From contig CAXWPJ010000005.1 of NCBI GenBank assembly GCA_963664115.2, positions 192,001 to 256,000 of the forward strand: a stretch of 64,000 nt of DNA, given 5' to 3'. Each line of letters begins with the position of its first letter. Positions within the stretch are counted from its first letter, which is position 1. The translations under genes were made by a program, and so were the position numbers. Source of the stretch: Terriglobia bacterium. GTDB taxonomy: Bacteria; Acidobacteriota; Terriglobia; 20CM-2-55-15. Below the pieces are notes generated by a model, which saw only the letters and a list, made by a program, of their open reading frames with translations, was not told the DNA's origin and made no database searches. Shown in pieces: positions 1-52,592 of the stretch.

Positions 1-135
1 CCCAGGCCAATTCTCCGGGAAGCGTTTTGATCGCCGTGTCGTCCCCACGTTTCCTAACCCGCGCACGCCACAGGGCGCTCTTGCCGCCCTGAGTGAAAGG
101 ATGGTGTCGTGACCGAGTTTGGGGCCCGACGCCAT
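1..135 (-). pseudogene. Degenerate Ser/Thr kinase N-terminal stub, running off the window start
   Basis: The reverse complement reads MASGPKLGHDTILSL, then after a frameshift GGKSALWRARVRKRGDDTAIKTLPGELAW. It matches the 8327 stub and is preceded by the same leader (GCGACACACT..ATG). Confidence 0.7.
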
Positions 136-380
136 CGATCCAGTGTGTCGCTGACTGAAGCCTGAAAATCTGGCTCAATATACCTGCAGGTGGAAGTTAT
201 TCGCAAGAAAAGTCTCGAGTCCTGGCGAACGAATTGTTTTAAGTCGTAAAACGGCCCGAAGACAGCAATCGAGATATCGAGACATCGCGCAAGTGGGTAC
301 GGCAGGGCGCCATTGTTTGGGCGTGTCCTGGAATTCCCCCCACTGTTACCCAGAGCCTGACCCGGAACTCGATGGCAAAT

Positions 381-1430: not shown

Positions 1431-1829
1431 CTAATCCCCTGGCTCCCGATCGACCAGGACGGTGCCATCCGTCAGCACCACCTTGATCAGTTCACCTTGA
1501 GGCGTCCCCGCGGTGGCTGGGATTATCGTGAACGTACCTTCCTGTCCGGCCTGGAAGGTTCTTCTACTCAGCCCCTCGCTCATCATCGAGGTGGTGGAAG
1601 ACATTTCGCCAGTCCACCCCACGACCTTACCCTGGTCGTCGGTGACATCCCAAACGAGGTAAGTATGCGGGTTGCGCCATCTCCATTCCGAAACAACCCC
1701 GTCCATCTCAATGCGCCTGTCGGTATCGTAGATCCCCGCACGGCCATGGTGCGCTGAAGCCAGACCGCCCAAAATGACGACCGACATCAACACAAGCACC
1801 GCCGTGGCCCAAACACGCTGAATTCTCAT
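1431..1829 (-). CDS. DUF6152 family exported protein
   Basis: Signal peptide ending AHH, W.NPH motif, RBS AGGAGG. Confidence 0.8.
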   Translation of the reverse strand: MRIQRVWATAVLVLMSVVILGGLASAHHGRAGIYDTDRRIEMDGVVSEWRWRNPHTYLVWDVTDDQGKVVGWTGEMSSTTSMMSEGLSRRTFQAGQEGTFTIIPATAGTPQGELIKVVLTDGTVLVDREPGD

Positions 1830-5258: not shown

Positions 5259-5642
5259 CTACTGGCTGCCGTAGAGGAGCAGTTCTCTCCCGTCGGGCGT
5301 CATGACTCTTTCCAACCTCAGAATCATGGACCCATCCGTGAAGCGAAATCCGATGCCCGTGATGACGTCTCCTGCCTTCAAGGTATCCCTGTCCCAGCCG
5401 TTCGCCGCCATCCGATTAATACTGGGACCTCCGACTTGCCAGCCCTCGACCCTGCCGTCGTCGGACTGTACGTCGAGCCCGATCATCACGTGCGGATTGC
5501 CCCACGCGTAGGCCGTCACTGTCCCCTGCACCGTGACTTCTGTCGAACGATTGACCGGCCATCGGTGATGCGCAAACAATGGGCTGGCGGCCACGAGGAT
5601 CCCGATCGCTCCAAGTGCGAACACTCCCATCTTGTTCATCAT
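5259..5642 (-). CDS. DUF6152 family exported protein
   Basis: Signal peptide ending AHH; motifs WGNPH and LK.GD.IT. Confidence 0.8.
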   Translation of the reverse strand: MMNKMGVFALGAIGILVAASPLFAHHRWPVNRSTEVTVQGTVTAYAWGNPHVMIGLDVQSDDGRVEGWQVGGPSINRMAANGWDRDTLKAGDVITGIGFRFTDGSMILRLERVMTPDGRELLLYGSQ

Positions 5643-5770
5643 GTCCAACCTCCAGACCCGATTATACTGGATCGCCTGCGGGGCCGCACCGAGCATCGGG
5701 AGACCCGTCCAGGTTTAACTCGACGACCACTCCCGATAAACGTCGCAGCGTTGATCCGTTCTTCCAGACT

Positions 5771-8210: not shown

Positions 8211-8249
8211 TTCTCACTGTCCGACAAGGTCGTTTCTCAGGACCTGACC
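8211..8249. repeat. Upstream inverted repeat of a kinase-shell unit
   Basis: Its reverse complement matches 10421-10459 at 30/39 positions without gaps. Confidence 0.85.
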
Positions 8250-8255
8250 TTCTGA

Positions 8256-8284
8256 TTGCTTACAACTCCCACCTCTAGTATCGT
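8256..8284 (+). promoter_or_regulatory. Sigma70-like promoter conserved across units
   Basis: TTGCTT-17-TATCGT; homologous positions at 19306-19334 (TAGCGC-17-TATCTT) and 22559-22587 (TTGCGT-17-TATCTT). Confidence 0.6.
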
Positions 8285-8326: not shown

Positions 8327-8482
8327 ATGGAATCAACCACACAACTCGGCCACTACGAGATCTCAACGCTCTTGGGTAAGGGTGGAATGGGAGAAGTTTG
8401 GCGTACGAGAGATACGAAGCTGGGACGTGAAGTTGCCATCAAGACGGTGTCTGAAGAGTTTGCGAGAGACGCCGACCGATGA
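8327..8482 (+). pseudogene. Ser/Thr kinase N-terminal stub (subdomains I-II, 51 aa)
   Basis: [51 protein letters not shown]; the stop overlaps the next ATG (ATGA). Confidence 0.9.
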
Positions 8483-10179
8483 AGCTTTTCAACAGCCAAT
8501 TCTCGCATGTCTTCAGCAAAGGCGAGATGCGCCGGAACCTCTTGACCTTACTCCGCTACCTCGCCTTTCTCTTCGCTATCGTTCTTACCTACGCCCTGAT
8601 CTTTCAGCTGATTATGATTGGCGTGGAGGACCAGTCACACTCCTGGATGACGGGCATCTACTGGACGCTCGTCACCATGACGACCCTCGGATTTGGTGAC
8701 ATTACATTCGCCACTGATATTGGCCGCCTTTTCAGCGTCTTCGTCTTACTGTCAGGCGTCGTCCTGCTCCTCGTTGTACTCCCCTTCACCTTCATCCGCT
8801 TCTTCTATGCGCCATGGCTCGAAGCCCAGGTGAGACTCAGAGCACCGAGGCGGCTTCGACCTTCGGTAAGAGAGCACGTGATCATCAGTCGTCACGACGA
8901 AATCGCCGCCGGTTTGATTGAGCGGCTGCGCCCCGAGGCGATTCCGTACTGCGTGATCGAGCCGGATCCAACCGTTGCGGCGCAGATGCTCAGCCAGGGT
9001 ATCTCCGTCGTCACGGGCGACATCGACAACCGGCTAACCTACGAAGGGGTCAATGTTCAGCAGGCCCGGCTGGTGCTTGCTAACCGAGAGGACACGACCA
9101 ACACGAACCTCACCCTAACTGTACGTGAGGTCACCACGGATGTCCCGGTCGTCGCGTTCGTCGAGAATCAGGACTCAATCGACATTTTGGAGCTCAGTGG
9201 TGCCACGCATGTGCTTGCTCTGAAACAGCGTCTGGGTGAATACCTCGCCAATCGCATCAGTGGCGGACAGGGCCACGCGGACGTAATCGGGGAGTTCAAG
9301 GGACTGCAGATCGCCGAGTTCCCAGCGCACAATACCCAGCTCGCCGGACGGAACGTGCGCGAGACGCGAATGCGAGAGACGATGGGCTTGAACATCGTCG
9401 GCGTCTGGCAGCGCGGCCGGCTACGACCGGCGTTTCCCGATACCCAGATCGTCGATCAGAGTGTCGTCGTCGTGGTCGGCGTGCCGGAGCAGATCGGCGA
9501 GTTGAATGGCCTCCTCCACCGCCCCGATGTGCGCGATGAGCCAGTTTTGGTCATTGGCGGTGGCAAGGTGGGACGCGCTGCGACGCGTGCCCTCAAGCGG
9601 AAAGGTGTTCCCGTGCACGTGCTCGAACGCGACGATCGGGCACACGACAAACTCGCGGGCATCTGCGATCAGCATTTCGTGGGTGACGCTGCTGATCGGG
9701 AGGCCCTGATGAGGGCGGGCCTGCAGAACGCTCCCTCAGTGCTGCTGACCACGAATGATGACGCCATGAACGTGTACCTAGCCGTGTACTGCAGGCGACT
9801 CAAGCCAGATCTACGGATCGTCAGCCGGATTACGCACGAGAGAAACCTCGAAGCGATCCATCGGGCGGGCGCAGATTTCGTGTTGAGCTACTCGACGCTG
9901 GGAGTGGAAGCTGTCTTTTCGGTGCTGCAAGGCCATGAGCTCGTCATCTTGGGGGAAGGTGTCGACCTATTTACGGTGGACCTCCCCCCTTCTCTGCAGG
10001 GCAAGATGCTTGCGGAAACTGGCATCGGCTCGCGAACTGGGCTGAGCGTGGTCGCGGTTGGCCAGAATGCGCAGCTGGTGACGAAGCTTCACTCTTCGAT
10101 GCGACTGGAGCCGGGCGCAAAGTTGATCATGCTGGGGAGCGTCAAGCAGCGGCAGGCGTTTGCCGACGCGTTTGGGTAG
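8479..10179 (+). CDS. Potassium channel protein with tandem RCK (TrkA-N/C) domains
   Basis: Two TM helices, filter [15 protein letters not shown], and two TrkA-N/TrkA-C pairs. Confidence 0.9.
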
Positions 10180-10380
10180 GCCCGCGGTTTCTCGGCCAAG
10201 GTATCTGCTAACCGATCCAAAATCTCCCGCAGCCACCTTCAGTTCGGGTGGCGGAAGGGGTCATCTGCGCTTCTCCCGAGTGTACCGGCACGATCGACAA
10301 CCGCGATCGTAACGACAACCAGCACACCGTTACGCCTGCAAGATTCGATCACACTGTCAACAACGGCCATCGCCTGCGCC

Positions 10381-10413
10381 ACCGAACTGAAGGAACGCGT
10401 GCCGGTTCCCTGA
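10381..10413 (+). pseudogene. Kinase C-terminal stub
   Basis: Reads TELKERVPVP*. Confidence 0.8.
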
Positions 10414-10420
10414 TTTGCGA

Positions 10421-10459
10421 GGTCAAGTCCTGATAAATCATCTTCGCGGACGTTGAGAA
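10421..10459. repeat. Downstream inverted repeat of a kinase-shell unit
   Basis: GGTCAAGTCCTGATAAATCATCTTCGCGGACGTTGAGAA, with homologs at 12532, 19201 and 22467. Confidence 0.85.
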
Positions 10460-11316: not shown

Positions 11317-11772
11317 GTGATGAAGCAACTATTACTGTCAGCGCTCATGCTGGGGATGCTCACAAGCATCGCGGAGTCCCGGCAGGCTGAGGGACCCTCT
11401 GCATCGGCAACCTCCTCCAATCTCATCCAACAATTTTTGATGGCCTACAACAGCCAGGACACAGCCTATTTCGACAGAACGCTGGCAAACGATGCCGTCG
11501 TTCTCGATGAGGACGGACACACGCTGACCGGCAAACCCCTGTTGATGCGCATTCTGGGCGGACGACTCTCGGCTACCCCTGCACCGCGTCTCGTTGCTTC
11601 AGACATTACAGGGTCGAATGCCGGGGACGTAGCGTGGGGCTCGCTGAACTACACTTTCGAGCAGGGTGACGAAACAAGAATGGGTTTCATGACTCTGGTC
11701 TTCCAAAGGTCCGGTAACAATTGGGAGATCGCGCACTGGCAGTTTTCCATCCATACGGTGCCTGAAGGCTAA
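11317..11772 (+). CDS. Exported NTF2/SnoaL-like (DUF4440) protein
   Basis: Signal peptide; C-terminal TLVFQR....W.I.H.QFS. Confidence 0.75.
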   Translation: MMKQLLLSALMLGMLTSIAESRQAEGPSASATSSNLIQQFLMAYNSQDTAYFDRTLANDAVVLDEDGHTLTGKPLLMRILGGRLSATPAPRLVASDITGSNAGDVAWGSLNYTFEQGDETRMGFMTLVFQRSGNNWEIAHWQFSIHTVPEG

Positions 11773-11832: not shown

Positions 11833-11907
11833 TCGGCACGTCCGAACGAAACCAACATCGTCCTCAATTGGTTTGAAGAACTGAAGGAACGGGTGCCGGT
11901 TCCTTGA
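11833..11907 (+). pseudogene. Kinase C-terminal stub
   Basis: Reads SARPNETNIVLNWFEELKERVPVP*. Confidence 0.88.
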
Positions 11908-11986
11908 GGGCAAGGCTGTCGCACATTGCGAGGTCACCAAAAAGCTCGGCTAGCGCGTGCGGGGACGCTTCCGAGGGAGGTCTGTA

Positions 11987-12424
11987 ATGGGGTATTTGAG
12001 GCTCTGCGCGGCCATCGTCGGGATACTTCTGTTGTTGGGTTGTTCGAGTTCTGAGGAGGGTCGTTCCGTTAACCTGAACGCCGATCAATTGGCTGAAGGG
12101 GCGTTGGGAGAGATGCGATCGGAAGGCGAGGCATCGGCTGTGACTGTCCTGAGAATCCTGAATACGGCTGCAGTGACGTACTTTGTTAGGAACCGGCGCT
12201 ACCCAAGCGTCGAAGAATTAACCGAGGCGGGGTTGGTGAACATTGAGGATGCTGCAAATTCACAGGGACCGTATCGTTACCACATCTCTGAAACGGAGAC
12301 CGGATATGAGATAGTTGCCCGCCCGGAGGAGGAGTCTTGGGCCCACTTTTATTATGACGAGACGGGCCTCATCCGTTCCGAAATCGGGCGGCCTGCCAAT
12401 GCGGAGAGTGCTCCAGTGAATTAG
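11987..12424 (+). CDS. Hypothetical lipoprotein with a pilin-like globular domain
   Basis: GGAGG RBS; lipobox LLGC; E.SA...LR.LNTA..TY and Y.I.ARP...FY.DETG.IR. Confidence 0.6.
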   Translation: MGYLRLCAAIVGILLLLGCSSSEEGRSVNLNADQLAEGALGEMRSEGEASAVTVLRILNTAAVTYFVRNRRYPSVEELTEAGLVNIEDAANSQGPYRYHISETETGYEIVARPEEESWAHFYYDETGLIRSEIGRPANAESAPVN

Positions 12425-12475: not shown

Positions 12476-12570
12476 AGGTTCGAGGAACTGAAAGAATGAG
12501 TGCCAGTCCCCTAAATGAGCGTGAAAATGATTCTCAAGTCCTGACAAATCATCTTCTCGGACATTGAGAA
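12476..12570 (+). pseudogene. Kinase C-terminal stub plus downstream inverted repeat
   Basis: RFEELKE*VPVP* at 12476-12514, then TCTCAAGTCCTGACAAATCATCTTCTCGGACATTGAGAA at 12532-12570. Confidence 0.82.
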
Positions 12571-12815
12571 TTCGTTGATTCCAACCATTGCTTCCAACCC
12601 ACTCGTTCCAAAACTAGAACTGGTTGCCAGAAGCCGCCTTCTGGGGCGTTGAATTTGGATCGGTAAACGCTACAGCGTTACTGAGGAGTAATCGTTGCGA
12701 TGATGAGGCTTGAACTGTTGGGGCCTTGGATACGATTCACATTTCCGCATACGCGATTATACGGCCAGGTGACTCTTCGATTGCTATTAAACCCAACATG
12801 TAGTTTGATTTACAA

Positions 12816-14148: not shown

Positions 14149-14589
14149 AGCCAACCTGTCAAACCTGGGATGATCAATCCAACTATCTGTAACGATTTTC
14201 GAATGCCTTGTCCGCAACGCACGCGGGGGAGGACGTCATCTGCGATCCAAGAATCGACTGACATGTGGCTGCCGGACGCCCAATTTCCCTGAAACTCCCA
14301 AATAGTCCGGTGCTGGGCATCTGGGTCGATTTTAAATGCTTGGTAAGTCGCCTATACGGAAAAGTGCATTCAGAATGAGGCAGCGGATTACTCCTCCCTT
14401 GTCGCCTAGCGTTTAGGAATGGGCATTAACGACCCAAAAGTCGGCTTCGGGGAAGTCGGCGGAGACAGAGATGACGGCTCAAGTCCTGTATCTGGACTCC
14501 TCTGTCAAGTAGGCGCAGCTCTCCCGTCAGCTTTCTTCGGCAAAATGCATTCAGCAGGACTGACTAGAAGTTACGAGATGAGTAGCTAG

Positions 14590-16420
14590 TCCCTGAACAA
14601 GCGTGATTGACGAGGAAATGATAGTGCAATAAGAGCGGAAGTACCCGAAATGCCCCTCTCCGTGCGAAAAAAACCTTGGACAGATTCTTCGGAAAAGGAG
14701 GCATTTCAGATGAACGATTATACGCGCAAGAACATGAGGAACCGCAAGCGGCGAATCGAACGTCGGCTTGGGGACCGGCATTGGACGGATCAGGTAGAGC
14801 CGATGTTTTCGGCGAGCAACATTCAGTACGAGATGGGAGAGCGGACGCGGGGCACATCGGTTGGTGGTATCGGGACGATGCAACTGGTGGCGCGGCGGAC
14901 CGGGCTGATCGAAGCCATCGACAAGGGCGTGCATGTGTTGAAGCGGCACCTGCCGTATCACGAGTCGGATCACGTGCTGAACATCGCCTACAACGCCTTG
15001 AGCGGAGGAACGTGCCTGGAAGACATCGAACTGCGGCGCAACGATGCGGTGTATCTGGATGCGCTGGGAGCGCAACGGATTCCGGATCCGACGACGGCGG
15101 GAGACTTCTGCCGGAGATTCGAGGCCGACGACGTGGAGTGTCTGATGGAGGCAACCAATCAAGTCCGGCTCGGAGTCTGGCGACAGCAACCGGCGGCGTT
15201 TTTCGAAGAAGCGGTGTTGGACGCGGACGGGACACTGGCCGAAACCACGGGGGAATGCAAGCAAGGGATGGACGTGGCCTACGACGGGACGTGGGGATAT
15301 CACCCGCTGATGATCTCGCTGGCCAACACCGCCGAACCGCTGTATCTGGTCAATCGTAGCGGCAACCGGCCGTCGCATGAAGGAGCCGCGGTCCGGTTCG
15401 ACCAAGCCATCGCATTGTGCCGGCATGCGGGGTTTCGCCAGATCCTGCTGCGCGGGGACACGGACTTCAGCCAGACCCGGCATCTGGACGGATGGGACGA
15501 CCAGCAGGTGGGTTTCATATTCGGGATTGACGCGATGGCGAACCTGAAGGCCCGGGCCGATGAACTGGAGCCGCGCCAGTGGAAGCGCCTGGAACGGCCC
15601 GCGAAATACGACGTGGCGACCGAACCGCGCCAACGTCCCGACAACGTGAAGGAAGAGATCGTTCGGCAGCGCGGTTTCGACAATATCCGCTTGCAGGGTG
15701 AGGATGTGGCCGAGTTTCGGTATCGACCCGGAGCCTGCGATCGGGACTACCGTGTCGTCGTGGTGCGGAAGAATCTGTCGGTGGCCAAAGGAGAGCAGGT
15801 GTTGTTTGACGAATCCGGTACTTGGCTACATTACCAACCGTTCGGATCCGGCCGATCAGATTGTGATGCGTGCCAATCAACGGTGCAATCAGGAGAACTC
15901 ATTGAGCAGTTGAAGAACGGCGTTCAGGCGTTGCGGATGCCGGTCGGAGATCAGACCAGCAACTGGGCCTACATGGTGATCGCGTCACTGGCCTGGACAC
16001 TGAAAGCGTGGTTTGCATTGCTGCTTCCCGAAACCGGACGTTGGGGCCAAAAATATCAGGCTGAGAAGCAAACCGTGCTGCGCATGGAGTTCAAAACCTT
16101 CTTGAACGCTTTCATGCTTGTGCCGTGCCAACTCGTGCGCACCGGGCGGCGCATTCTGTTCCGGATCCTGGCCTGGAACCGGTGGTTGCCGGTCTTGTTC
16201 CGCGGGGTGGATGTGTTGCGTCGCCTCTGCGATGTTGACCCGATCATGACTTGAGCCCGGGCGATCGAGGTCCCGGTTTCTGTCAACCGTCCAACACCAG
16301 CGAGGCTGAACTGAAACAGATTCAACAGAAACTCGATACCTGGAACAGGCCATCCGGGAACGGGATTCTATGCCTCGAATTCTTCGGCGAACTGGGCCTC
16401 GGCGGACTGGTTATGCGCTT
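14590..16420 (+). mobile_element. IS1380-family copy 1, frameshifted and lacking the right end
   Basis: Near-identical to 16436-18284 but with several small indels and without the last ~9 bp. Confidence 0.9.
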
Positions 16421-16435
16421 GAGATGAGTAGCTAG

Positions 16436-18284
16436 TCCCTGAACAAGCGTGATTGACGAGGAAATGATAGTGCAATAAGAGCGGAAGTACCCGAAATGCC
16501 CCCTCTCCGTGCGAAAAAAACCTTGAACAGATTCTTCGGAAAAGGAGGCATTTCAGATGAACGATTATACGCGCAAGAACATGAGGAACCGCAAGCGGCG
16601 AATCGAACGTCGGCTTGGGGACCGGCATTGGACGGATCAGGTAGAGCCGATGTTTTCGGCGAGCAACATTCAGTACGAGATGGGAGAGCGGACGCGGGGC
16701 ACATCGGTTGGTGGTATCGGGACGATGCAACTGGTGGCGCGGCGGACCGGGCTGATCGAAGCCATCGACAAGGGCGTGCATGTGTTGAAGCGGCACCTGC
16801 CGTATCACGAGTCGGATCACGTGCTGAACATCGCCTACAACGCCTTGAGCGGAGGAACGTGCCTGGAAGACATCGAACTGCGGCGCAACGATGCGGTGTA
16901 TCTGGATGCGCTGGGAGCGCAACGGATTCCGGATCCGACGACGGCGGGAGACTTCTGCCGGAGATTCGAGGCCGACGACGTGGAGTGTCTGATGGAGGCA
17001 ACCAATCAAGTCCGGCTCGGAGTCTGGCGACAGCAACCGGCGGCGTTTTTCGAAGAAGCGGTGTTGGACGCGGACGGGACACTGGCCGAAACCACGGGGG
17101 AATGCAAGCAAGGGATGGACGTGGCCTACGACGGGACGTGGGGATATCACCCGCTGATGATCTCGCTGGCCAACACCGCCGAACCGCTGTATCTGGTCAA
17201 TCGTAGCGGCAACCGGCCGTCGCATGAAGGAGCCGCGGTCCGGTTCGACCAAGCCATCGCATTGTGCCGGCATGCGGGGTTTCGCCAGATCCTGCTGCGC
17301 GGGGACACGGACTTCAGCCAGACCCGGCATCTGGACGGATGGGACGACCAGCAGGTGGGTTTCATATTCGGGATTGACGCGATGGCGAACCTGAAGGCCC
17401 GGGCCGATGAACTGGAGCCGCGCCAGTGGAAGCGCCTGGAACGGCCCGCGAAATACGACGTGGCGACCGAACCGCGCCAACGTCCCGACAACGTGAAGGA
17501 AGAGATCGTTCGGCAGCGCGGTTTCGACAATATCCGCTTGCAGGGTGAGGATGTGGCCGAGTTTCGGTATCGACCCGGAGCCTGCGATCGGGACTACCGT
17601 GTCGTCGTGGTGCGGAAGAATCTGTCGGTGGCCAAAGGAGAGCAGGTGTTGTTTGACGACATCCGGTACTTCTTCTACATTACCAACCGTTCGGATCCGG
17701 CCGACCAGATTGTGATGCGTGCCAATCAACGGTGCAATCAGGAGAATCTCATTGAGCAGTTGAAGAACGGCGTTCAGGCGTTGCGGATGCCGGTCGGAGA
17801 TCAGACCAGCAACTGGGCCTACATGGTGATCGCGTCACTGGCCTGGACACTGAAAGCGTGGTTTGCATTGCTGCTTCCCGAAACCGGACGTTGGGGCCAA
17901 AAATATCAGGCTGAGAAGCAAACCGTGCTGCGCATGGAGTTCAAAACCTTCTTGAACGCTTTCATGCTTGTGCCGTGCCAACTCGTGCGCACCGGGCGGC
18001 GCATTCTGTTCCGGATCCTGGCCTGGAACCGGTGGTTGCCGGTCTTGTTCCGCGGGGTGGATGTGTTGCGTCAGCCTCTGCGATGTTGACCCGATCATGA
18101 CTCTGAGCCCGGGCGATCGAGGTCCCGGTTTCTGTCAACCGTCCAACACCAGCGAGGCTGAACTGAAACAGATTCAACAGAAACTCGATACCTGGAACAG
18201 GCCATCCGGGAACGGGATTCTATGCCTCGAATTCTATCGGCGCGAACTGGGCCTCGGCGGACTGGTTATGCGCTTGTTTTGGGA
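16436..18284 (+). mobile_element. IS1380-family element copy 2
   Basis: Ends CCCTGAACAAGCG and CGCTTGTTTTGGG, flanked by CTAG on both sides. Confidence 0.92.
16557..18089 (+). CDS. IS1380-family DDE transposase
   Basis: LDADGT, GYHPL, RSGN, LRGDTDF and R...EN.I..LK. Confidence 0.92.
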   Translation: MNDYTRKNMRNRKRRIERRLGDRHWTDQVEPMFSASNIQYEMGERTRGTSVGGIGTMQLVARRTGLIEAIDKGVHVLKRHLPYHESDHVLNIAYNALSGGTCLEDIELRRNDAVYLDALGAQRIPDPTTAGDFCRRFEADDVECLMEATNQVRLGVWRQQPAAFFEEAVLDADGTLAETTGECKQGMDVAYDGTWGYHPLMISLANTAEPLYLVNRSGNRPSHEGAAVRFDQAIALCRHAGFRQILLRGDTDFSQTRHLDGWDDQQVGFIFGIDAMANLKARADELEPRQWKRLERPAKYDVATEPRQRPDNVKEEIVRQRGFDNIRLQGEDVAEFRYRPGACDRDYRVVVVRKNLSVAKGEQVLFDDIRYFFYITNRSDPADQIVMRANQRCNQENLIEQLKNGVQALRMPVGDQTSNWAYMVIASLAWTLKAWFALLLPETGRWGQKYQAEKQTVLRMEFKTFLNAFMLVPCQLVRTGRRILFRILAWNRWLPVLFRGVDVLRQPLRC

Positions 18285-18591
18285 CTAGTATAGCTGTGCT
18301 TCAGGTCTCTCACAATTGGGCGCCAGACGAAAGAAGATCACGTCTGACCAATCAGTGACAGGGAGAAACGAGCTGTCCCAGCCGAACCGGTCGCGCCGGA
18401 AGGCGAAGGGAAGGGGATGCTAAACAATGCATTATCGGGTACGAAATGTCCTGCCGCAGTCCGGTTGGAGGCTAGTTTCCAGGTAAGGAACCGGGAAGCC
18501 GTCACGGACCGGCCTCAGGTCTCGGCAGATCCGGGTAAAAGCTATCGCGTGTAATCGAATGGTGAGCGATTCATTGCGATACGTGAAGAAC

Positions 18592-18705
18592 TAGCCGAGA
18601 CGCCGGAAGGCGGCATCGAACCGCCCAGTCGCGAGGCAATAACAAATGTAGCCGAGACGCCGGAAGGCGGCATCGAACCGCCCAGTCGCGAGGCAATAAC
18701 AAATG
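18592..18705. repeat. Perfect 57-bp tandem duplication
   Basis: TAGCCGAGACGCC...AATAACAAATG occurs at 18592 and 18649. Confidence 0.95.
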
Positions 18706-19067: not shown

Positions 19068-19175
19068 GTCAAACCTCCTTCTTCACTCGCAATTATAGCC
19101 GACGGACTGTCCCTTTCGCAGGGAGGCGGGGCAGCGCCACGAACGACCGGCTGATGGTCGCAGACGTCGATGGCG

Positions 19176-19299
19176 CGGGTCCCGGTGCCCTGATTTGCGA
19201 TCTCAAGTCTTGAAAAATTCCCTTCTCGGACATTGAGAATCGGGCAAATTTCTGGGGATTTTCAACGTCATCAAGAAGGTCGTTTGCCAGGACCTGAGA
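19176..19299 (+). repeat. C-stub (RVPVP*) plus a complete ~99-bp imperfect palindrome at a unit junction
   Basis: TCTCAAGTCTTGAAAAA...CCTTCT..GACATTGAGAATC pairs with GATTTTCAACGTC..AGAAGG...TTTGCCAGGACCTGAGA (19201-19299). Confidence 0.85.
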
Positions 19300-19376
19300 A
19301 TTTGATAGCGCCTAAATTACTCCTCTAGTATCTTTTACCGAGAATTTAACTGTTCATTTAGCGACACACTTCGAAC

Positions 19377-19409
19377 ATGGAATCTGGCACCAAACTCGAC
19401 CATTACGAA
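19377..19409 (+). pseudogene. Short kinase N-terminal stub, in frame with the amidohydrolase
   Basis: MESGTKLDHYE after the conserved leader. Confidence 0.8.
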
Positions 19410-19439
19410 CAATCGCTCGATTTTTTAAGGAGAGGTACT

Positions 19440-21104
19440 GTGAAACATTTGAACTGGAAAACGACAGTGGCTCTTGTTCTGTTCGCAAGTTCCGTTGCTG
19501 CATCAATGGCTCATGCACAGGATCAGGCTCCGGATCTGGTTCTGTCCAACGGAAAGGTCGTTACTGTAGATGACCGCTTCACGATCGCAGAAGCGGTGGC
19601 TATCGGGGGCGAACGTATCGTGGGAGTCGGCACGAATCAGGAAGTCGCGCGACTGGCCGGGCCCAATACCCGAACGATCGATCTCGGAGGGCGTACCGTT
19701 ATTCCCGGCCTGATCGATAACCATGCTCACATCATGGAAGAAGGTCCGATCTGGCAGTTGGAACTGCGTCTGGATGGGGTGGAATCGCGGACCGAAGCGC
19801 TCGAGATGATACGCGGGCGGGCAATCGATCTGGGTCCGGGCGAATGGGTTTTCACACTGGGCGGTTGGGCGACGGATCAATTCACAGACGACGTGAGTCA
19901 TTTCACACGCGACGAGTTGGACCGGGTTGCTCCCGACAACCCGGTACTGTTGCAGTACACACGCTCCCACACTTATCTCAACAGCCGCGCTATAGAGGCC
20001 ATCGGGTTGAATGAGATGAACGCTCCATGGATCGTGCGCGATGATGGCGGAAGACCGACAGGCGTGATCGAAGCTGAGGGCATCAACCAAGTCGGACGAG
20101 CGCGTCCCGCGCCGCCAGAAGAATTGTTCGAATCCAGCAGCCTGGCAATGATCCGCGATATGAACCGAGCGGGTCTTACCACGGCCGGCGGTCCCTGCCC
20201 CGCGAACCTCATAGACAGGTTCCGGCAATTTGCAGATGAGGGTCGGCTCAATATGCGGTTCTTCTGTTTTCTGCCGACGGGAGCGTCCGGCACCCCAGCC
20301 CAGGTGGATCGCCTTCTGCCGCAGATCGCCGAGTTGAAACCGTTCCAGGGCGACAACTGGGTGGATCTGACCGCCTACGGAGAAAGCGTATACCGCCCGC
20401 TGCACGACAGCATGCTGGCACGCACAACCAATCCAACACCCGAGCAGCTTTTCCAGTGGCGACGCGTCGCGACTGAAGTTGCCCGTGCTGGATTACCGCT
20501 GCACGTACACGCCACGATCGAGAACACGATTACCGGATTTCTCGACCAGATCGAGCTGATTAACCAAGAGTACCCCATACGGAATCTGCGCTGGGCTTTG
20601 GCTCATGTTGACCAGGTGAACGCCTCACACATCGAGCGCATGAAGGATCTCGGGATGTACCTCGCGGTACATACGCGGCCGACCGTCATGGGCCAGATCT
20701 TCAACCGTGCGCATGGCGACCGTTCCTACGATATGCCGCCGCTGGCGCTCATCGAGAACAGCGGGATCGTGTGGGGCCTGGGAAGCGACACGTTCGAGGT
20801 GAATCAGTACCGGCCGTTCACGACCCTCTGGTGGGCTGTGACCGGGAAGATGGTAGGCGGCACCGAGGTCCTCAGGCAGACAATCGGCCGCGAAGAAGCC
20901 TTGATCGCCCACACGCGCGAAAATGCCTACCTGGTGTTTCAGGAAAACAATCTGGGTTCAATCCAACCCGGCAAGCTGGCGGATCTGCTAGTTCTGGACC
21001 GCGATTACCTGACGATTCCAGCCGACGAGATCAAGGACATCCAACCCCTGATGACGATTGTAGGAGGACGCATCGTCTACGACGCCGACGCTGATCAGGA
21101 CTGA
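19440..21104 (+). CDS. Exported amidohydrolase (Amidohydro_3/YtcJ-like)
   Basis: Own RBS and GTG start; signal peptide; IDLGGRTVIPGLIDNHAH; GSD; GSIQPGKLADL. Confidence 0.88.
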   Translation: MKHLNWKTTVALVLFASSVAASMAHAQDQAPDLVLSNGKVVTVDDRFTIAEAVAIGGERIVGVGTNQEVARLAGPNTRTIDLGGRTVIPGLIDNHAHIMEEGPIWQLELRLDGVESRTEALEMIRGRAIDLGPGEWVFTLGGWATDQFTDDVSHFTRDELDRVAPDNPVLLQYTRSHTYLNSRAIEAIGLNEMNAPWIVRDDGGRPTGVIEAEGINQVGRARPAPPEELFESSSLAMIRDMNRAGLTTAGGPCPANLIDRFRQFADEGRLNMRFFCFLPTGASGTPAQVDRLLPQIAELKPFQGDNWVDLTAYGESVYRPLHDSMLARTTNPTPEQLFQWRRVATEVARAGLPLHVHATIENTITGFLDQIELINQEYPIRNLRWALAHVDQVNASHIERMKDLGMYLAVHTRPTVMGQIFNRAHGDRSYDMPPLALIENSGIVWGLGSDTFEVNQYRPFTTLWWAVTGKMVGGTEVLRQTIGREEALIAHTRENAYLVFQENNLGSIQPGKLADLLVLDRDYLTIPADEIKDIQPLMTIVGGRIVYDADADQD

Positions 21105-21140: not shown

Positions 21141-21197
21141 GTCACATCGCTCCTGAACTGGTTTGAAGAACTGAAGGAAGGTGTGCCCTTTCCGTGA
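21141..21197 (+). pseudogene. Kinase C-terminal stub
   Basis: Reads VTSLLNWFEELKEGVPFP*. Confidence 0.88.
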
Positions 21198-21321
21198 TTT
21201 CGAGTTCAAGGTGACAACGAATCATATTGTCGGTGGTTGAACATTGGATCGTTGATGGCAGAGTCAGCGGTTGATCCAGCCCTGGATCATTGTAATCAAG
21301 CAGACGACACGAGAGGTGGAG

Positions 21322-22466: not shown

Positions 22467-22551
22467 CTCAAACCCTGACAAATCTTGTTGAGAATGGCTT
22501 GAAATACGGGGGTTTCCGAGTGTCCGGTTAGATCTTTTGCCAGGACTTGAG
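22467..22551. repeat. Junction palindrome of the kinase-shell family
   Basis: CTCAAACCCTGACAAA ... TTTGCCAGGACTTGAG, followed by the conserved promoter and leader. Confidence 0.8.
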
Positions 22552-22636
22552 AGTTTGGTTGCGTCTGACCCTCTCGTTTAATATCTTTTACGAAGATTTT
22601 TCACTGTTCGATACGCTACACATAGAGGTGACTCCG

Positions 22637-50298: not shown

Positions 50299-50302
50299 CT
50301 AG

Positions 50303-52151
50303 ACCCAAAACAAGCGCATAACCAGTCCGCCGAGGCCCAGTTCGCGCCGATAGAATTCGAGGCATAGAATCCCGTTCCCGGATGGCCTGTTCCAGGTATC
50401 GAGTTTCTGTTGAATCTGTTTCAGTTCAGCCTCGCTGGTGTTGGACGGTTGACAGAAACCGGGACCTCGATCGCCCGGGCTCAGAGTCATGATCGGGTCA
50501 ACATCGCAGAGGCTGACGCAACACATCCACCCCGCGGAACAAGACCGGCAACCACCGGTTCCAGGCCAGGATCCGGAACAGAATGCGCCGCCCGGTGCGC
50601 ACGAGTTGGCACGGCACAAGCATGAAAGCGTTCAAGAAGGTTTTGAACTCCATGCGCAGCACGGTTTGCTTCTCAGCCTGATATTTTTGGCCCCAACGTC
50701 CGGTTTCGGGAAGCAGCAATGCAAACCACGCTTTCAGTGTCCAGGCCAGTGACGCGATCACCATGTAGGCCCAGTTGCTGGTCTGATCTCCGACCGGCAT
50801 CCGCAACGCCTGAACGCCGTTCTTCAACTGCTCAATGAGATTCTCCTGATTGCACCGTTGATTGGCACGCATCACAATCTGGTCGGCCGGATCCGAACGG
50901 TTGGTAATGTAGAAGAAGTACCGGATGTCGTCAAACAACACCTGCTCTCCTTTGGCCACCGACAGATTCTTCCGCACCACGACGACACGGTAGTCCCGAT
51001 CGCAGGCTCCGGGTCGATACCGAAACTCGGCCACATCCTCACCCTGCAAGCGGATATTGTCGAAACCGCGCTGCCGAACGATCTCTTCCTTCACGTTGTC
51101 GGGACGTTGGCGCGGTTCGGTCGCCACGTCGTATTTCGCGGGCCGTTCCAGGCGCTTCCACTGGCGCGGCTCCAGTTCATCGGCCCGGGCCTTCAGGTTC
51201 GCCATCGCGTCAATCCCGAATATGAAACCCACCTGCTGGTCGTCCCATCCGTCCAGATGCCGGGTCTGGCTGAAGTCCGTGTCCCCGCGCAGCAGGATCT
51301 GGCGAAACCCCGCATGCCGGCACAATGCGATGGCTTGGTCGAACCGGACCGCGGCTCCTTCATGCGACGGCCGGTTGCCGCTACGATTGACCAGATACAG
51401 CGGTTCGGCGGTGTTGGCCAGCGAGATCATCAGCGGGTGATATCCCCACGTCCCGTCGTAGGCCACGTCCATCCCTTGCTTGCATTCCCCCGTGGTTTCG
51501 GCCAGTGTCCCGTCCGCGTCCAACACCGCTTCTTCGAAAAACGCCGCCGGTTGCTGTCGCCAGACTCCGAGCCGGACTTGATTGGTTGCCTCCATCAGAC
51601 ACTCCACGTCGTCGGCCTCGAATCTCCGGCAGAAGTCTCCCGCCGTCGTCGGATCCGGAATCCGTTGCGCTCCCAGCGCATCCAGATACACCGCATCGTT
51701 GCGCCGCAGTTCGATGTCTTCCAGGCACGTTCCTCCGCTCAAGGCGTTGTAGGCGATGTTCAGCACGTGATCCGACTCGTGATACGGCAGGTGCCGCTTC
51801 AACACATGCACGCCCTTGTCGATGGCTTCGATCAGCCCGGTCCGCCGCGCCACCAGTTGCATCGTCCCGATACCACCAACCGATGTGCCCCGCGTCCGCT
51901 CTCCCATCTCGTACTGAATGTTGCTCGCCGAAAACATCGGCTCTACCTGATCCGTCCAATGCCGGTCCCCAAGCCGACGTTCGATTCGCCGCTTGCGGTT
52001 CCTCATGTTCTTGCGCGTATAATCGTTCATCTGAAATGCCTCCTTTTCCGAAGAATCTGTTCAAGGTTTTTTTCGCACGGAGAGGGGGCATTTCGGGTAC
52101 TTCCGCTCTTATTGCACTATCATTTCCTCGTCAATCACGCTTGTTCAGGGG
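50303..52151 (-). mobile_element. IS1380-family copy 3 (transposase 50498..52030)
   Basis: Same 510-aa transposase as copy 2; CTAG on both flanks. Confidence 0.93.
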
Positions 52152-52592
52152 CTAGAGTTGGGAGTTCGCCACATAGGATGTCGTCGGAACTCGGAGATAA
52201 TATTCTTACTCTGAACGCCTCGGCTACCGCCTCGTTGTTCACCCGCACCGTCGGACCGGTGCGGGTTTGATTAAAGAACTGCATCAACAATTCTTAATCC
52301 CCAATACGCCTCTCCATCAGGATGATGGAGAGGGTCGCCGGTCGTTCGGCCCAACGCGCTCGGCGCGACAGAGATGGCCGGCCGTTTGAACGACCGAGCG
52401 AAATCTTATGTGAGGAACTTCCAATTCAGGACACCAGTCCACTCGTAGCACAGAGTTCCCCACACCGTTGTACTCACCACTCATATGTCACACAGCCGTC
52501 GTATGAATGACACTAATCCTTGCCGAGACTAAACCTTTCCGTGTCGCATCCTGTCTAACCGAAAAACCGTACCAATGTGTGCGGTTCAACTC

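What the first reader, a model, noticed from the sequence alone, without database searches (positions are those of the whole stretch)
19201..19299. ~39-bp IR family that forms a ~85-100-bp imperfect palindrome at unit junctions (candidate recombination site)
Seen: full palindromes at 19201-19299 and 22467-22551. Half sites are at 8211-8249, 10421-10459, 12532-12570 and a partial one at ~213-232. The K+ channel unit is bracketed by halves matching at 30/39 in inverted orientation. Several mismatches at 19201 are G:U/T compatible, consistent with a conserved fold. The RYYYAAC/GTTRRRY boxes of attC are absent. Inference: a recombinase or transposase site, or a structured RNA/ssDNA element.
Basis: partly seen in the sequence, partly recalled or inferred. 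Interest (0 to 1): 0.8.

Follow-up and report, generated by a model that had tools for sequence, protein, structure and literature searches.

The report
Gene-cassette shuffling sites in Acidobacteria
This 39-base repeat occurs about 190 times in one acidobacterial genome, at the borders of small gene blocks that turn up in different orders, and it is likely the cut-and-rejoin site of a DNA recombinase that would drive a gene-shuffling system distinct from integrons and dif modules.

Summary
The repeat is real and far larger in scale than reported: 193 copies genome-wide, none in shuffled DNA. The unit is the 39-bp site itself: two ~16-bp inverted arms around a 6-bp core. Cores come in two classes. 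A (ATCATC) follows the 3' stub of a Ser/Thr-kinase gene and forms co-oriented arrays; B (ACGACA/C) is inverted and precedes a promoter and kinase start. The 85-100-bp palindromes are an A site, a short spacer and an inverted B site. There is no covariation, no significant fold of the long palindromes, no target duplication, and no attC, dif or Rfam match. Cassettes 99-100% identical sit between A sites with different neighbours, so blocks are reshuffled at the site. Related site families with other arms and cores mark the same kinase ends in other genera. Best reading: a double-stranded tyrosine-recombinase crossover site running a cassette platform. The candidate enzyme lies between two B sites 140 kb away and its relatives carry similar sites, but it was not found in five genomes that have sites, so the enzyme is unproven.

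The parts
104..135 (-). decayed kinase start (N-terminal stub) read away from the site at 213
213..234 (+). B-type site, left arm and core (ACGAAT) only; right arm lost
   Evidence: (I17)
8211..8249 (-). B-type site, core ACGACC, 52 bits
8250..8482 (+). promoter-like leader (-10 TAGTAT at 8276) and kinase N-terminal stub starting at 8327
8479..10179 (+). cargo: K+ channel (Ion_trans_2 + TrkA domains)
10378..10413 (+). kinase 3' stub (last codons and stop)
   Evidence: (D8)
10421..10459 (+). A-type site, core ATCATC, 66 bits
10460..12531 (+). A-to-A cassette: SnoaL-like gene 11317-11772, siteless kinase stub 11872-11907, ORF 11957-12424, kinase stub 12479-12514
12532..12570 (+). A-type site, core ATCATC, 69 bits (close to the consensus)
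12736..12773 (-). family-2 site (other arms), core ATCGCG, 42 bits
14331..14368 (+). family-2 A-type site, core GTCGCC, 37 bits
14424..14462 (+). third site family ('type C'), core GTCGGC
14477..14488 (+). left arm of an A-type site, broken by an inserted element
19169..19200 (+). short decayed kinase 3' stub leading into the site
   Evidence: D7, 79% to 10389-10459
19201..19239 (+). A-type site with a mutated core (ATTCCC), 47 bits; left half of the reported palindrome
19240..19260 (.). 21-bp spacer of the recurrent 17-21-bp A-B spacer family
19261..19299 (-). B-type site, core ACGACC, decayed right arm; right half of the reported palindrome
19302..19331 (+). sigma-70-like promoter (TTGATA, 18 nt, TAGTAT), conserved behind B sites
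19377..21104 (+). first 11 kinase codons fused in frame to a cargo amidohydrolase
21162..21243 (+). kinase 3' stub (21162-21197) and decayed A-type site (21205-21243)
   Evidence: (D7, D8)
22467..22505 (+). decayed A-type site (core shortened)
22514..22552 (-). B-position site, core AAGATC, family-1 left arm with a family-2-like right arm; promoter-like -10 at 22579; cargo MBL gene follows

Best explanation
The 39-bp repeat marks the borders of gene blocks that occur in different orders in this genome, and it is likely a double-stranded crossover site that a tyrosine recombinase would cut at its 6-bp core to shuffle those blocks. Shown: 16-6-16 dyad anatomy; two core classes tied to different flanks; polar arrays; identical cassettes with different neighbours; kinase stubs at both block ends. 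Inferred: one recombinase monomer binds each arm; strand exchange needs matching cores, so A recombines with A (excision, insertion and reordering of A-to-A cassettes) and B with B (swapping of the promoter-bearing front end); a B...A block cannot delete or invert itself but can be exchanged by two events, like lox/lox511 cassette exchange (analogy recalled). The founding cassette was a promoter-kinase gene bounded by B and A; other genes were captured by illegitimate joins inside the kinase gene, leaving stubs and placing some cargo under its promoter. Most likely enzyme: the simple Xer-like recombinase family whose single intact gene lies between two inverted B sites at G000:C5:52189-53154 (about 45% given the site reading); it would be a transient module, absent from many genomes that keep the sites.
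For: 193 copies, 0 in shuffle. Picked by arms alone, 130 of 174 sites have core ATCATC and 21 ACGACA/C; among 143 A-like sites the core deviates 2.2% per position against 9.1% for the arms (4.3% without the five polymorphic positions). Of 193 sites, 81 A have a kinase-end left flank and 23 B a promoter flank, with no A-promoter or B-kinase-end case. 81 of 121 neighbouring pairs within 9 kb are co-oriented A-A, 19 are B...A blocks, 15 head-to-head A-B, 4 inverted A-A. Whole cassettes at 99-100% identity with different neighbours: C2 264299-265588 = C6 43765-45054; C11 54768-55482 = C6 37667-39775 plus an insertion; C11 55482-55944 = C6 26654-27116; one cassette is shared with G001 at 90.5% with the same borders. 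15 site pairs share one flank at 97% or more and not the other, with 0 core differences. No covariation. A second family with the same A/B grammar (cores GTCGCC and ACCGCC) follows the same kinase ends in G007, G013, G004 and G000. The candidate recombinase (PF00589; R-K-H-R-H-Y read by eye) is flanked by two inverted B sites; its 62%-identical relative in G007 has a family-2 B site upstream and a divergent kinase gene. In metagenomic relatives a combined site profile scores over 8 bits upstream of 9 of 52 genes against 22 of 798 control windows, mostly on the same strand at a similar distance; six of those nine fall in the clade (support 0.975) that holds the G000 and G007 genes.
Against: No recombination was observed directly. 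The candidate enzyme was not found in G002 (2 contigs, 97% complete, 72 sites), G003, G004, G013 or G021. Only 3 of 82 relatives' loci have a kinase motif and 43 of 52 have no upstream site over 8 bits; those loci are kin, so the p of 0.003 overstates. Arm polymorphisms are not tied to their flank as a clean central crossover predicts: left-shared pairs differ at 7 left-arm and 10 right-arm positions, right-shared pairs at 21 and 9, and positions 14, 25, 26 and 32 are unlinked to either flank; this needs conversion in the arms or repeated events. One possible A-flank/B-core hybrid exists (C12 548433). Some duplicated blocks lie near contig ends and could be assembly duplicates.
Confidence: 0.68

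Rival explanations
1. Same site and cassette system, but the working enzyme is the integron-like tyrosine recombinase carried by IS91-type elements, by single-strand exchange at the AAC triplet where arm meets core.
For: Of 10 such element ends in G000, 3 abut an intact family-1 core plus right arm, and 4 of 6 rebuilt empty targets score over 12 bits as family-2 sites; 2 of 2 loci in G002 and 1 of 2 in G004 sit at the same junction, and 3 of 4 in G013 look so by eye. This enzyme family is present in G002, G004 and G013, which lack the first candidate. PMC/bioRxiv 10.1101/542381 (passages) places IS91 recombinases in the integron-like subgroup.
Against: Its own ends do not resemble the dyad; it inserts into cores of many sequences, which does not explain strict core conservation; 5 of 5 G001 loci, and the G007 and G017 loci, are not at sites; no strong match of this type was listed for G003. 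IS110-type elements and a group II intron also target the site, so targeting alone marks a parasite.
Confidence: 0.12
2. The repeat is a dispersed protein-binding or promoter-linked repeat, and blocks are shuffled by ordinary homologous recombination in it and in the adjoining kinase stubs (as recalled for T4 PeSL cassettes); no dedicated enzyme.
For: Arm variants are unlinked to flanks; no recombinase other than XerC/XerD is shared by all site-rich genomes examined; B sites adjoin a promoter.
Against: The core is the best-conserved part and comes in discrete classes in each site family, whereas operator spacers usually vary (general knowledge); most A sites lie behind gene ends; related sites flank recombinase genes in distant genomes; 39 bp is short for RecA.
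Confidence: 0.1
3. The sites are pdif-like and are recombined by the host XerC/XerD.
For: 6-bp core with AA/TT inner ends; the right arm matches the genome's XerC-side dif arm at 8 of 11 positions (by eye); XerC and XerD occur in all five relatives searched.
Against: The XerD-side arm matches at only 5-6 of 11; conservation runs to 14-16 bp from the core; a single canonical dif is conserved across G000, G002, G003, G004, G007 and G013 while the site family changes; sites are mostly co-oriented.
Confidence: 0.05
4. B and A are the left and right ends of a non-autonomous transposon or MITE, or the 39-mer is a REP/attC-like hairpin handled as single-stranded DNA.
For: B...A blocks are bracketed by inverted sites; a lone B...A block of about 1 kb occurs in G007; the best copy (12532) folds better than shuffles (z -2.3, -3.15); RAYT-like genes exist in the genome.
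Against: No target duplication; A outnumbers B about five to one; no transposase was seen bounded by B and A among 110 of 179 array ORFs scanned; no covariation; two other copies do not fold better than shuffles; family-2 arms do not pair in their inner parts.
Confidence: 0.05

Closest known systems
pdif/dif modules of Acinetobacter (XerC/XerD; PMC12907356, passages read)
   Same: Double-stranded dyad sites with a 6-bp central region bound gene modules that line up into islands, also on the chromosome; cargo is varied; IS elements accumulate there.
   Different: Arms are about 16 bp, not 11, and do not match the host dif; sites are mostly co-oriented; two fixed core classes with fixed roles; about 190 sites in 44 clusters; modules are built on a kinase gene; candidate enzyme is not XerC/XerD.
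Integrons and CALIN arrays (IntI, attI, attC)
   Same: Polar arrays of cassettes each ending in a site; reordering of whole cassettes; a recombinase gene divergent from a promoter with a special site (B) between them; sites hunted by IS110/IS1111 elements and group II introns (PMC11187229 passages; PMC3001079 abstract start only).
   Different: No attC boxes, no covariation, 39 bp; cassettes are larger (median 2.1 kb) with genes in either orientation (41 forward, 27 reverse of 81); many B sites; candidate enzyme scores 61 bits against a 265-bit IntI cut-off; a normal integron exists elsewhere in the genome.
Cre/lox and Flp/FRT with heterospecific cores (recalled, no call)
   Same: Inverted arms around an asymmetric core; two incompatible cores would allow cassette exchange.
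   Different: There it is an engineered use of single natural sites; here the two-core grammar is natural and genome-wide, and untested.
REP/REPIN elements with RAYT
   Same: Short multi-copy palindromes, sometimes in inverted pairs, targeted by IS110-family elements.
   Different: No covariation or GTAG/GGAG foot; fixed gene-block grammar; flanks are exchanged at the site.

Membership tests
Integron attC/cassette array | RYYYAAC and GTTRRRY boxes framing the site | tested here: not met
   Consensus ends do not fit; true attC-like sites were found only near the separate IntI gene (12-kb region scanned).
Integron attC/cassette array | Bottom-strand hairpin kept by compensatory changes | tested here: not met
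   Observed pairing equals expectation at all 15 pairs in 100 distinct A sites; pair 14:25 is 35 against 37.9; same in family 2.
Integron attC/cassette array | IntI-type integrase linked to the array | tested here: not met
   Candidate scores 60.8 against cut-off 265 on TIGR02249; the IntI-like gene at C9:714590 has no site within 3 kb.
Integron attC/cassette array | Co-oriented sites and whole-cassette reordering | tested here: met
   81 of 121 pairs co-oriented A-A; identical cassettes in new contexts.
pdif/dif modules | 28-bp site, 11-bp XerC and XerD arms like the host dif | tested here: not met
   Host dif found separately and conserved in six genomes; XerD-side match 5-6 of 11; conserved arm is longer.
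pdif/dif modules | 6-bp central region between inverted arms, sites bounding gene modules | tested here: met
pdif/dif modules | Recombination by XerC/XerD | not testable with these tools
   Needs binding and recombination assays.
Tyrosine-recombinase crossover site (general) | Dyad arms around a conserved asymmetric 6-8-bp core | tested here: met
Tyrosine-recombinase crossover site (general) | Exchange points confined to the core | tested here: inconclusive
   0 core differences in 15 one-sided pairs, but arms are only partly linked to their flanks (7/10 and 21/9).
Tyrosine-recombinase crossover site (general) | Cognate recombinase present and active | tested here: inconclusive
   Gene between two B sites in G000 and beside one in G007; not found in five site-bearing genomes; activity untested.
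IS/MITE terminal inverted repeats | Target-site duplication outside paired ends | tested here: not met
   20 B...A units: 13 with none, 7 with 3-4 bp that overlap the palindromic ends.
IS/MITE terminal inverted repeats | Match to ends of a catalogued IS | tested here: inconclusive
   ISfinder is not on hand; no match in 72,556 plasmids, 50,697 phages or the viral contigs.
Structured RNA | Rfam family or covarying fold | tested here: not met
   0 matches at E 0.5 in window 1-25000.

The most novel reading that the evidence does not exclude
A third natural gene-cassette platform beside integrons and dif modules: a small, mobile tyrosine recombinase acts on two incompatible double-stranded sites (A and B) that evolved around a Ser/Thr-kinase gene, turned that gene into a capture vehicle with its own promoter, and now reorders and exchanges hundreds of kilobases of accessory genes in a family of Acidobacteria, a natural form of recombinase-mediated cassette exchange with several co-existing site specificities.
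Probability: 0.42. Interest if true: 0.9.

Novelty: new variant of a known kind. Interest (0 to 1): 0.76.

Why it matters
About 13% of this genome lies within 3 kb of a site, so the system would organise much of its accessory gene pool, and tools that look for attC or dif sites would miss it. It offers an explanation for the large number of kinase genes and fragments in these bacteria (101 kinase-end motifs here, 15-90 in the four congeners). Site, core classes and a candidate enzyme are all defined, so a plasmid assay can test it at once. A recombinase family with several natural arm and core variants would also be a source of orthogonal genome-engineering tools.

Tried and rejected
Hairpin or RNA reading: rejected by covariation, folding and Rfam. 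Long palindrome as the unit: rejected, since only 15 of 121 neighbouring pairs are head-to-head and exchange points fall at single sites. XerC/XerD: separate dif. Classical integron: separate locus. HUH Y1 (2 matches) and serine resolvases (3 matches) in G000: none tied to the arrays by position, although one Y1 gene lies about 300 bp from a lone site at C10:489740. A profile search of all six-frame ORFs found no further intact tyrosine recombinase. Unseeded motif discovery on flanks of the recombinase relatives was swamped by the ribosome-binding site or gave a weak motif; the seeded scan was used instead. Exact-pattern scans: 8 loci in 3 Terriglobia assemblies among genome contigs, 0 in viral contigs. 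Joints in the laid contigs have short sides and come from paralogous sites, so they say nothing on excision; presence or absence of cassettes across more distant runs remains open. Literature: eight full-text searches returned no description of this system; subscription papers are mostly outside the library and no supplements were read. The scan's own index had nothing by sequence or words.

Full report
Observation. The reported repeats are present at the stated places, and contigs of four public runs span both long palindromes almost unchanged. A profile built from the window copies and iterated finds 193 non-overlapping copies above 16 bits in the 4.89-Mb genome, 174 above 25 bits, and none in a block-shuffled genome. 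They fall into 44 clusters of up to 14 sites; 13% of the genome lies within 3 kb of one. With up to 3 mismatches the site occurs in 5 of 41 genomes searched: 117 times here, 72, 36 and 8 times in three of four congeners, and once in another genus. Record titles of relatives give class Terriglobia.

Anatomy. The unit is 39 bp: a 16-bp left arm, a 6-bp core and a right arm that is an imperfect inverted copy of the left (best copy in the window: 12532-12570). Chosen by arms alone, 130 of 174 sites have core ATCATC (type A) and 21 have ACGACA or ACGACC (type B); among 143 A-like sites the core is the least variable part. Pairing across the dyad equals chance expectation at all 15 pairs in 100 distinct A sites. 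The long palindromes fold no better than shuffles; one of three single sites does. There is no Rfam match. The 85-100-bp palindromes are an A site, a 17-21-bp spacer and an inverted B site; a 108-bp spacer class also recurs.

Grammar. Of 193 sites, 81 A sites follow the last codons of a Ser/Thr-kinase gene and 23 B sites have, on their left side and reading away, a promoter-like leader and usually a kinase start; no A-promoter or B-kinase-end case was counted (one possible hybrid). The promoter at 19302-19331 fits sigma-70 at 9 of 12 positions. The full gene is a kinase with PD40 repeats (889 aa), and one copy is itself an A-to-A cassette (C10:248476-251193). Of 121 kinase 3' ends, 97 keep under 200 bp of detectable kinase sequence and 8 keep over 1 kb; 67 kinase starts were found, mostly short. 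At 19377 the first 11 kinase codons run in frame into an amidohydrolase. Among 121 neighbouring site pairs within 9 kb, 81 are co-oriented A-A (median 2.1 kb), 19 are B...A blocks, 15 head-to-head A-B, 4 inverted A-A and 2 B-B. Cargo, from 110 of 179 array ORFs scanned, is ordinary: hydrolases, dehydrogenases, transporters, repeat proteins and many insertion sequences; the longest ORF runs forward in 41 and backward in 27 of 81 cassettes (crude).

Shuffling. Whole cassettes recur between A sites with new neighbours: 1250 bp at 99.8% (C2 and C6), 675 bp (C11 and C6, the latter with an insertion), 423 bp at 100%, 350 bp at 96.8%, and one of 676 bp shared with G001 at 90.5%. Some other duplicates are whole runs near contig ends and may be assembly repeats. 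Fifteen site pairs share one 120-bp flank at 97% or more and not the other; none differs in the core. Against a clean central crossover, left-shared pairs differ at 7 left-arm and 10 right-arm positions, right-shared pairs at 21 and 9, and four polymorphic arm positions are unlinked to either flank. So blocks are exchanged at the site, but the exact point is not resolved; conversion in the near-identical arms or several rounds of exchange must be assumed. No target duplications were found in 20 B...A units.

Relatives. The kinase-end motif is amplified in G000 (101), G002 (90), G004 (47), G001 (35), G007 (27), G021 (18), G013 (17), G003 (15) and G030 (12), and is rare or absent in most others of 41. 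G004, which lacks the exact site, has a variant with core ATCCGG; G007, G013, G004 and G000 itself have a second family with different arms and the same two-class logic (GTCGCC behind kinase ends, ACCGCC inverted before the promoter), again without covariation (n 61; 17 hits in G000, 2 in a shuffle). Hybrids with one arm of each family exist. A third family with core GTCGGC was seen 12 times in G000 by a loose pattern.

Enzyme. The genome has 27 tyrosine-recombinase matches. XerC and XerD have their own single dif, conserved in five relatives, and an integron integrase with attC-like sites lies elsewhere. One simple recombinase (C5:52189-53154; PF00589; below all NCBIfam cut-offs) lies between two inverted, intact B sites, each leading out to a promoter and kinase start. 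Its relative in G007 (62%) has a family-2 B site upstream and a divergent kinase. Among 52 distinct upstream regions of related genes, 9 score over 8 bits with a combined site profile against 22 of 798 control windows; downstream 6 of 45; most strong hits are on the same strand at a similar distance from the start, and six of the nine are in the clade with the G000 and G007 genes. Against it: not found in G002, G003, G004, G013 or G021, and only 3 of 82 loci carry a kinase motif. A second candidate is the integron-like recombinase of IS91-type elements, which sit at the arm-core boundary of these sites in G000, G002 and G004 but not in G001. An IS110 element (7 copies at the core's left edge), further elements with IS110/IS1111-like ends inside the core, and three putative group II intron starts (5' end recognised from memory) also split sites. 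IS1111/IS110 elements are known to hunt attC sites, REPs and transposon ends (PMC11187229, passages), so these are read as parasites of a conserved multi-copy site.

Mechanism. Most likely (0.68) the site is bound as duplex DNA by a tyrosine recombinase, one monomer per arm, with exchange across the core. Like cores recombine and unlike cores do not, which accounts for polar A arrays, for B staying with the promoter, and for B...A blocks that persist. The kinase gene was the founding cassette; deletions and illegitimate joins inside it captured other genes and left stubs. The anatomy, grammar and reordering are shown; binding, catalysis, core dependence, the capture route and the identity of the enzyme are inferred.

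Comparison and novelty. It works like pdif modules (PMC12907356, passages: 28-bp sites, 11-bp arms, 6-bp centre, module islands) and is arranged like an integron array, but fails the defining tests of both. The recombinase classification of PMC8138268 (passages) does not mention Acidobacteria in its main text. Eight literature searches found no description, nor did plasmid, phage or viral searches give a match. I file it as a new variant of a known kind, with a 0.42 chance that it is a separate cassette platform. Interest 0.76.

Noticed in passing
G000:C1:92883-95358 and nine other element ends; L061, L065, L060, L338-L340: IS91-type elements carrying an integron-like tyrosine recombinase have a TAAC/AAAC at both ends and are inserted at the arm-core boundary of the sites, with no IS91-type target tetranucleotide at the far end; they look integrated by their recombinase rather than by the HUH transposase.
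   Followed up: partly
G000:C12:333881 and six more; also window 14477-14600: Several distinct IS110/IS1111-like elements insert at fixed positions of the site (core edge, after base 3-4 of the core, or within the left arm); one type hits both site families, a ready set of natural bridge-RNA targets.
   Followed up: partly
G000:C12:17035, 20172, 564490; C5:39662: Sequences starting GTGTG or GTGCG, likely group II introns, are inserted in the right arm (3 copies) or left arm (1) of A sites.
   Followed up: no
G000:C9:711000-715900: A conventional integron integrase gene with at least one 92-bp attC-like hairpin nearby, unlinked to the site arrays.
   Followed up: partly
L247-L326 (metagenome loci): The candidate recombinase family often occurs as a lone gene with dyad sites close to both ends, suggesting recombinase-only mobile elements widespread in Acidobacteria.
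   Followed up: partly
window 18592-18705: Exact 57-bp tandem duplication; contigs of all four runs laid carry a single copy, so it may be strain-specific, collapsed in those contigs, or an assembly error.
   Followed up: no
window 14575-18288 and 50299-52155: IS1380-like element (DDE_Tnp_1_4) in tandem, the first copy frameshifted, with a third copy inverted at 50 kb; very high depth in the runs.
   Followed up: no
L155:2970-4511 (G000:C2:256969-258510): A multi-S1-domain protein, like ribosomal protein S1, lies between two A sites as apparent cargo.
   Followed up: no
L243 (G017:C1:4718000-4737999): Run of intact-looking kinase genes head to tail without sites between them, a possible state before or without the site system.
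   Followed up: no
window 1431-1829 and 5259-5696: Two DUF6152 genes, each in a region that begins at a decayed kinase start on the minus strand.
   Followed up: no
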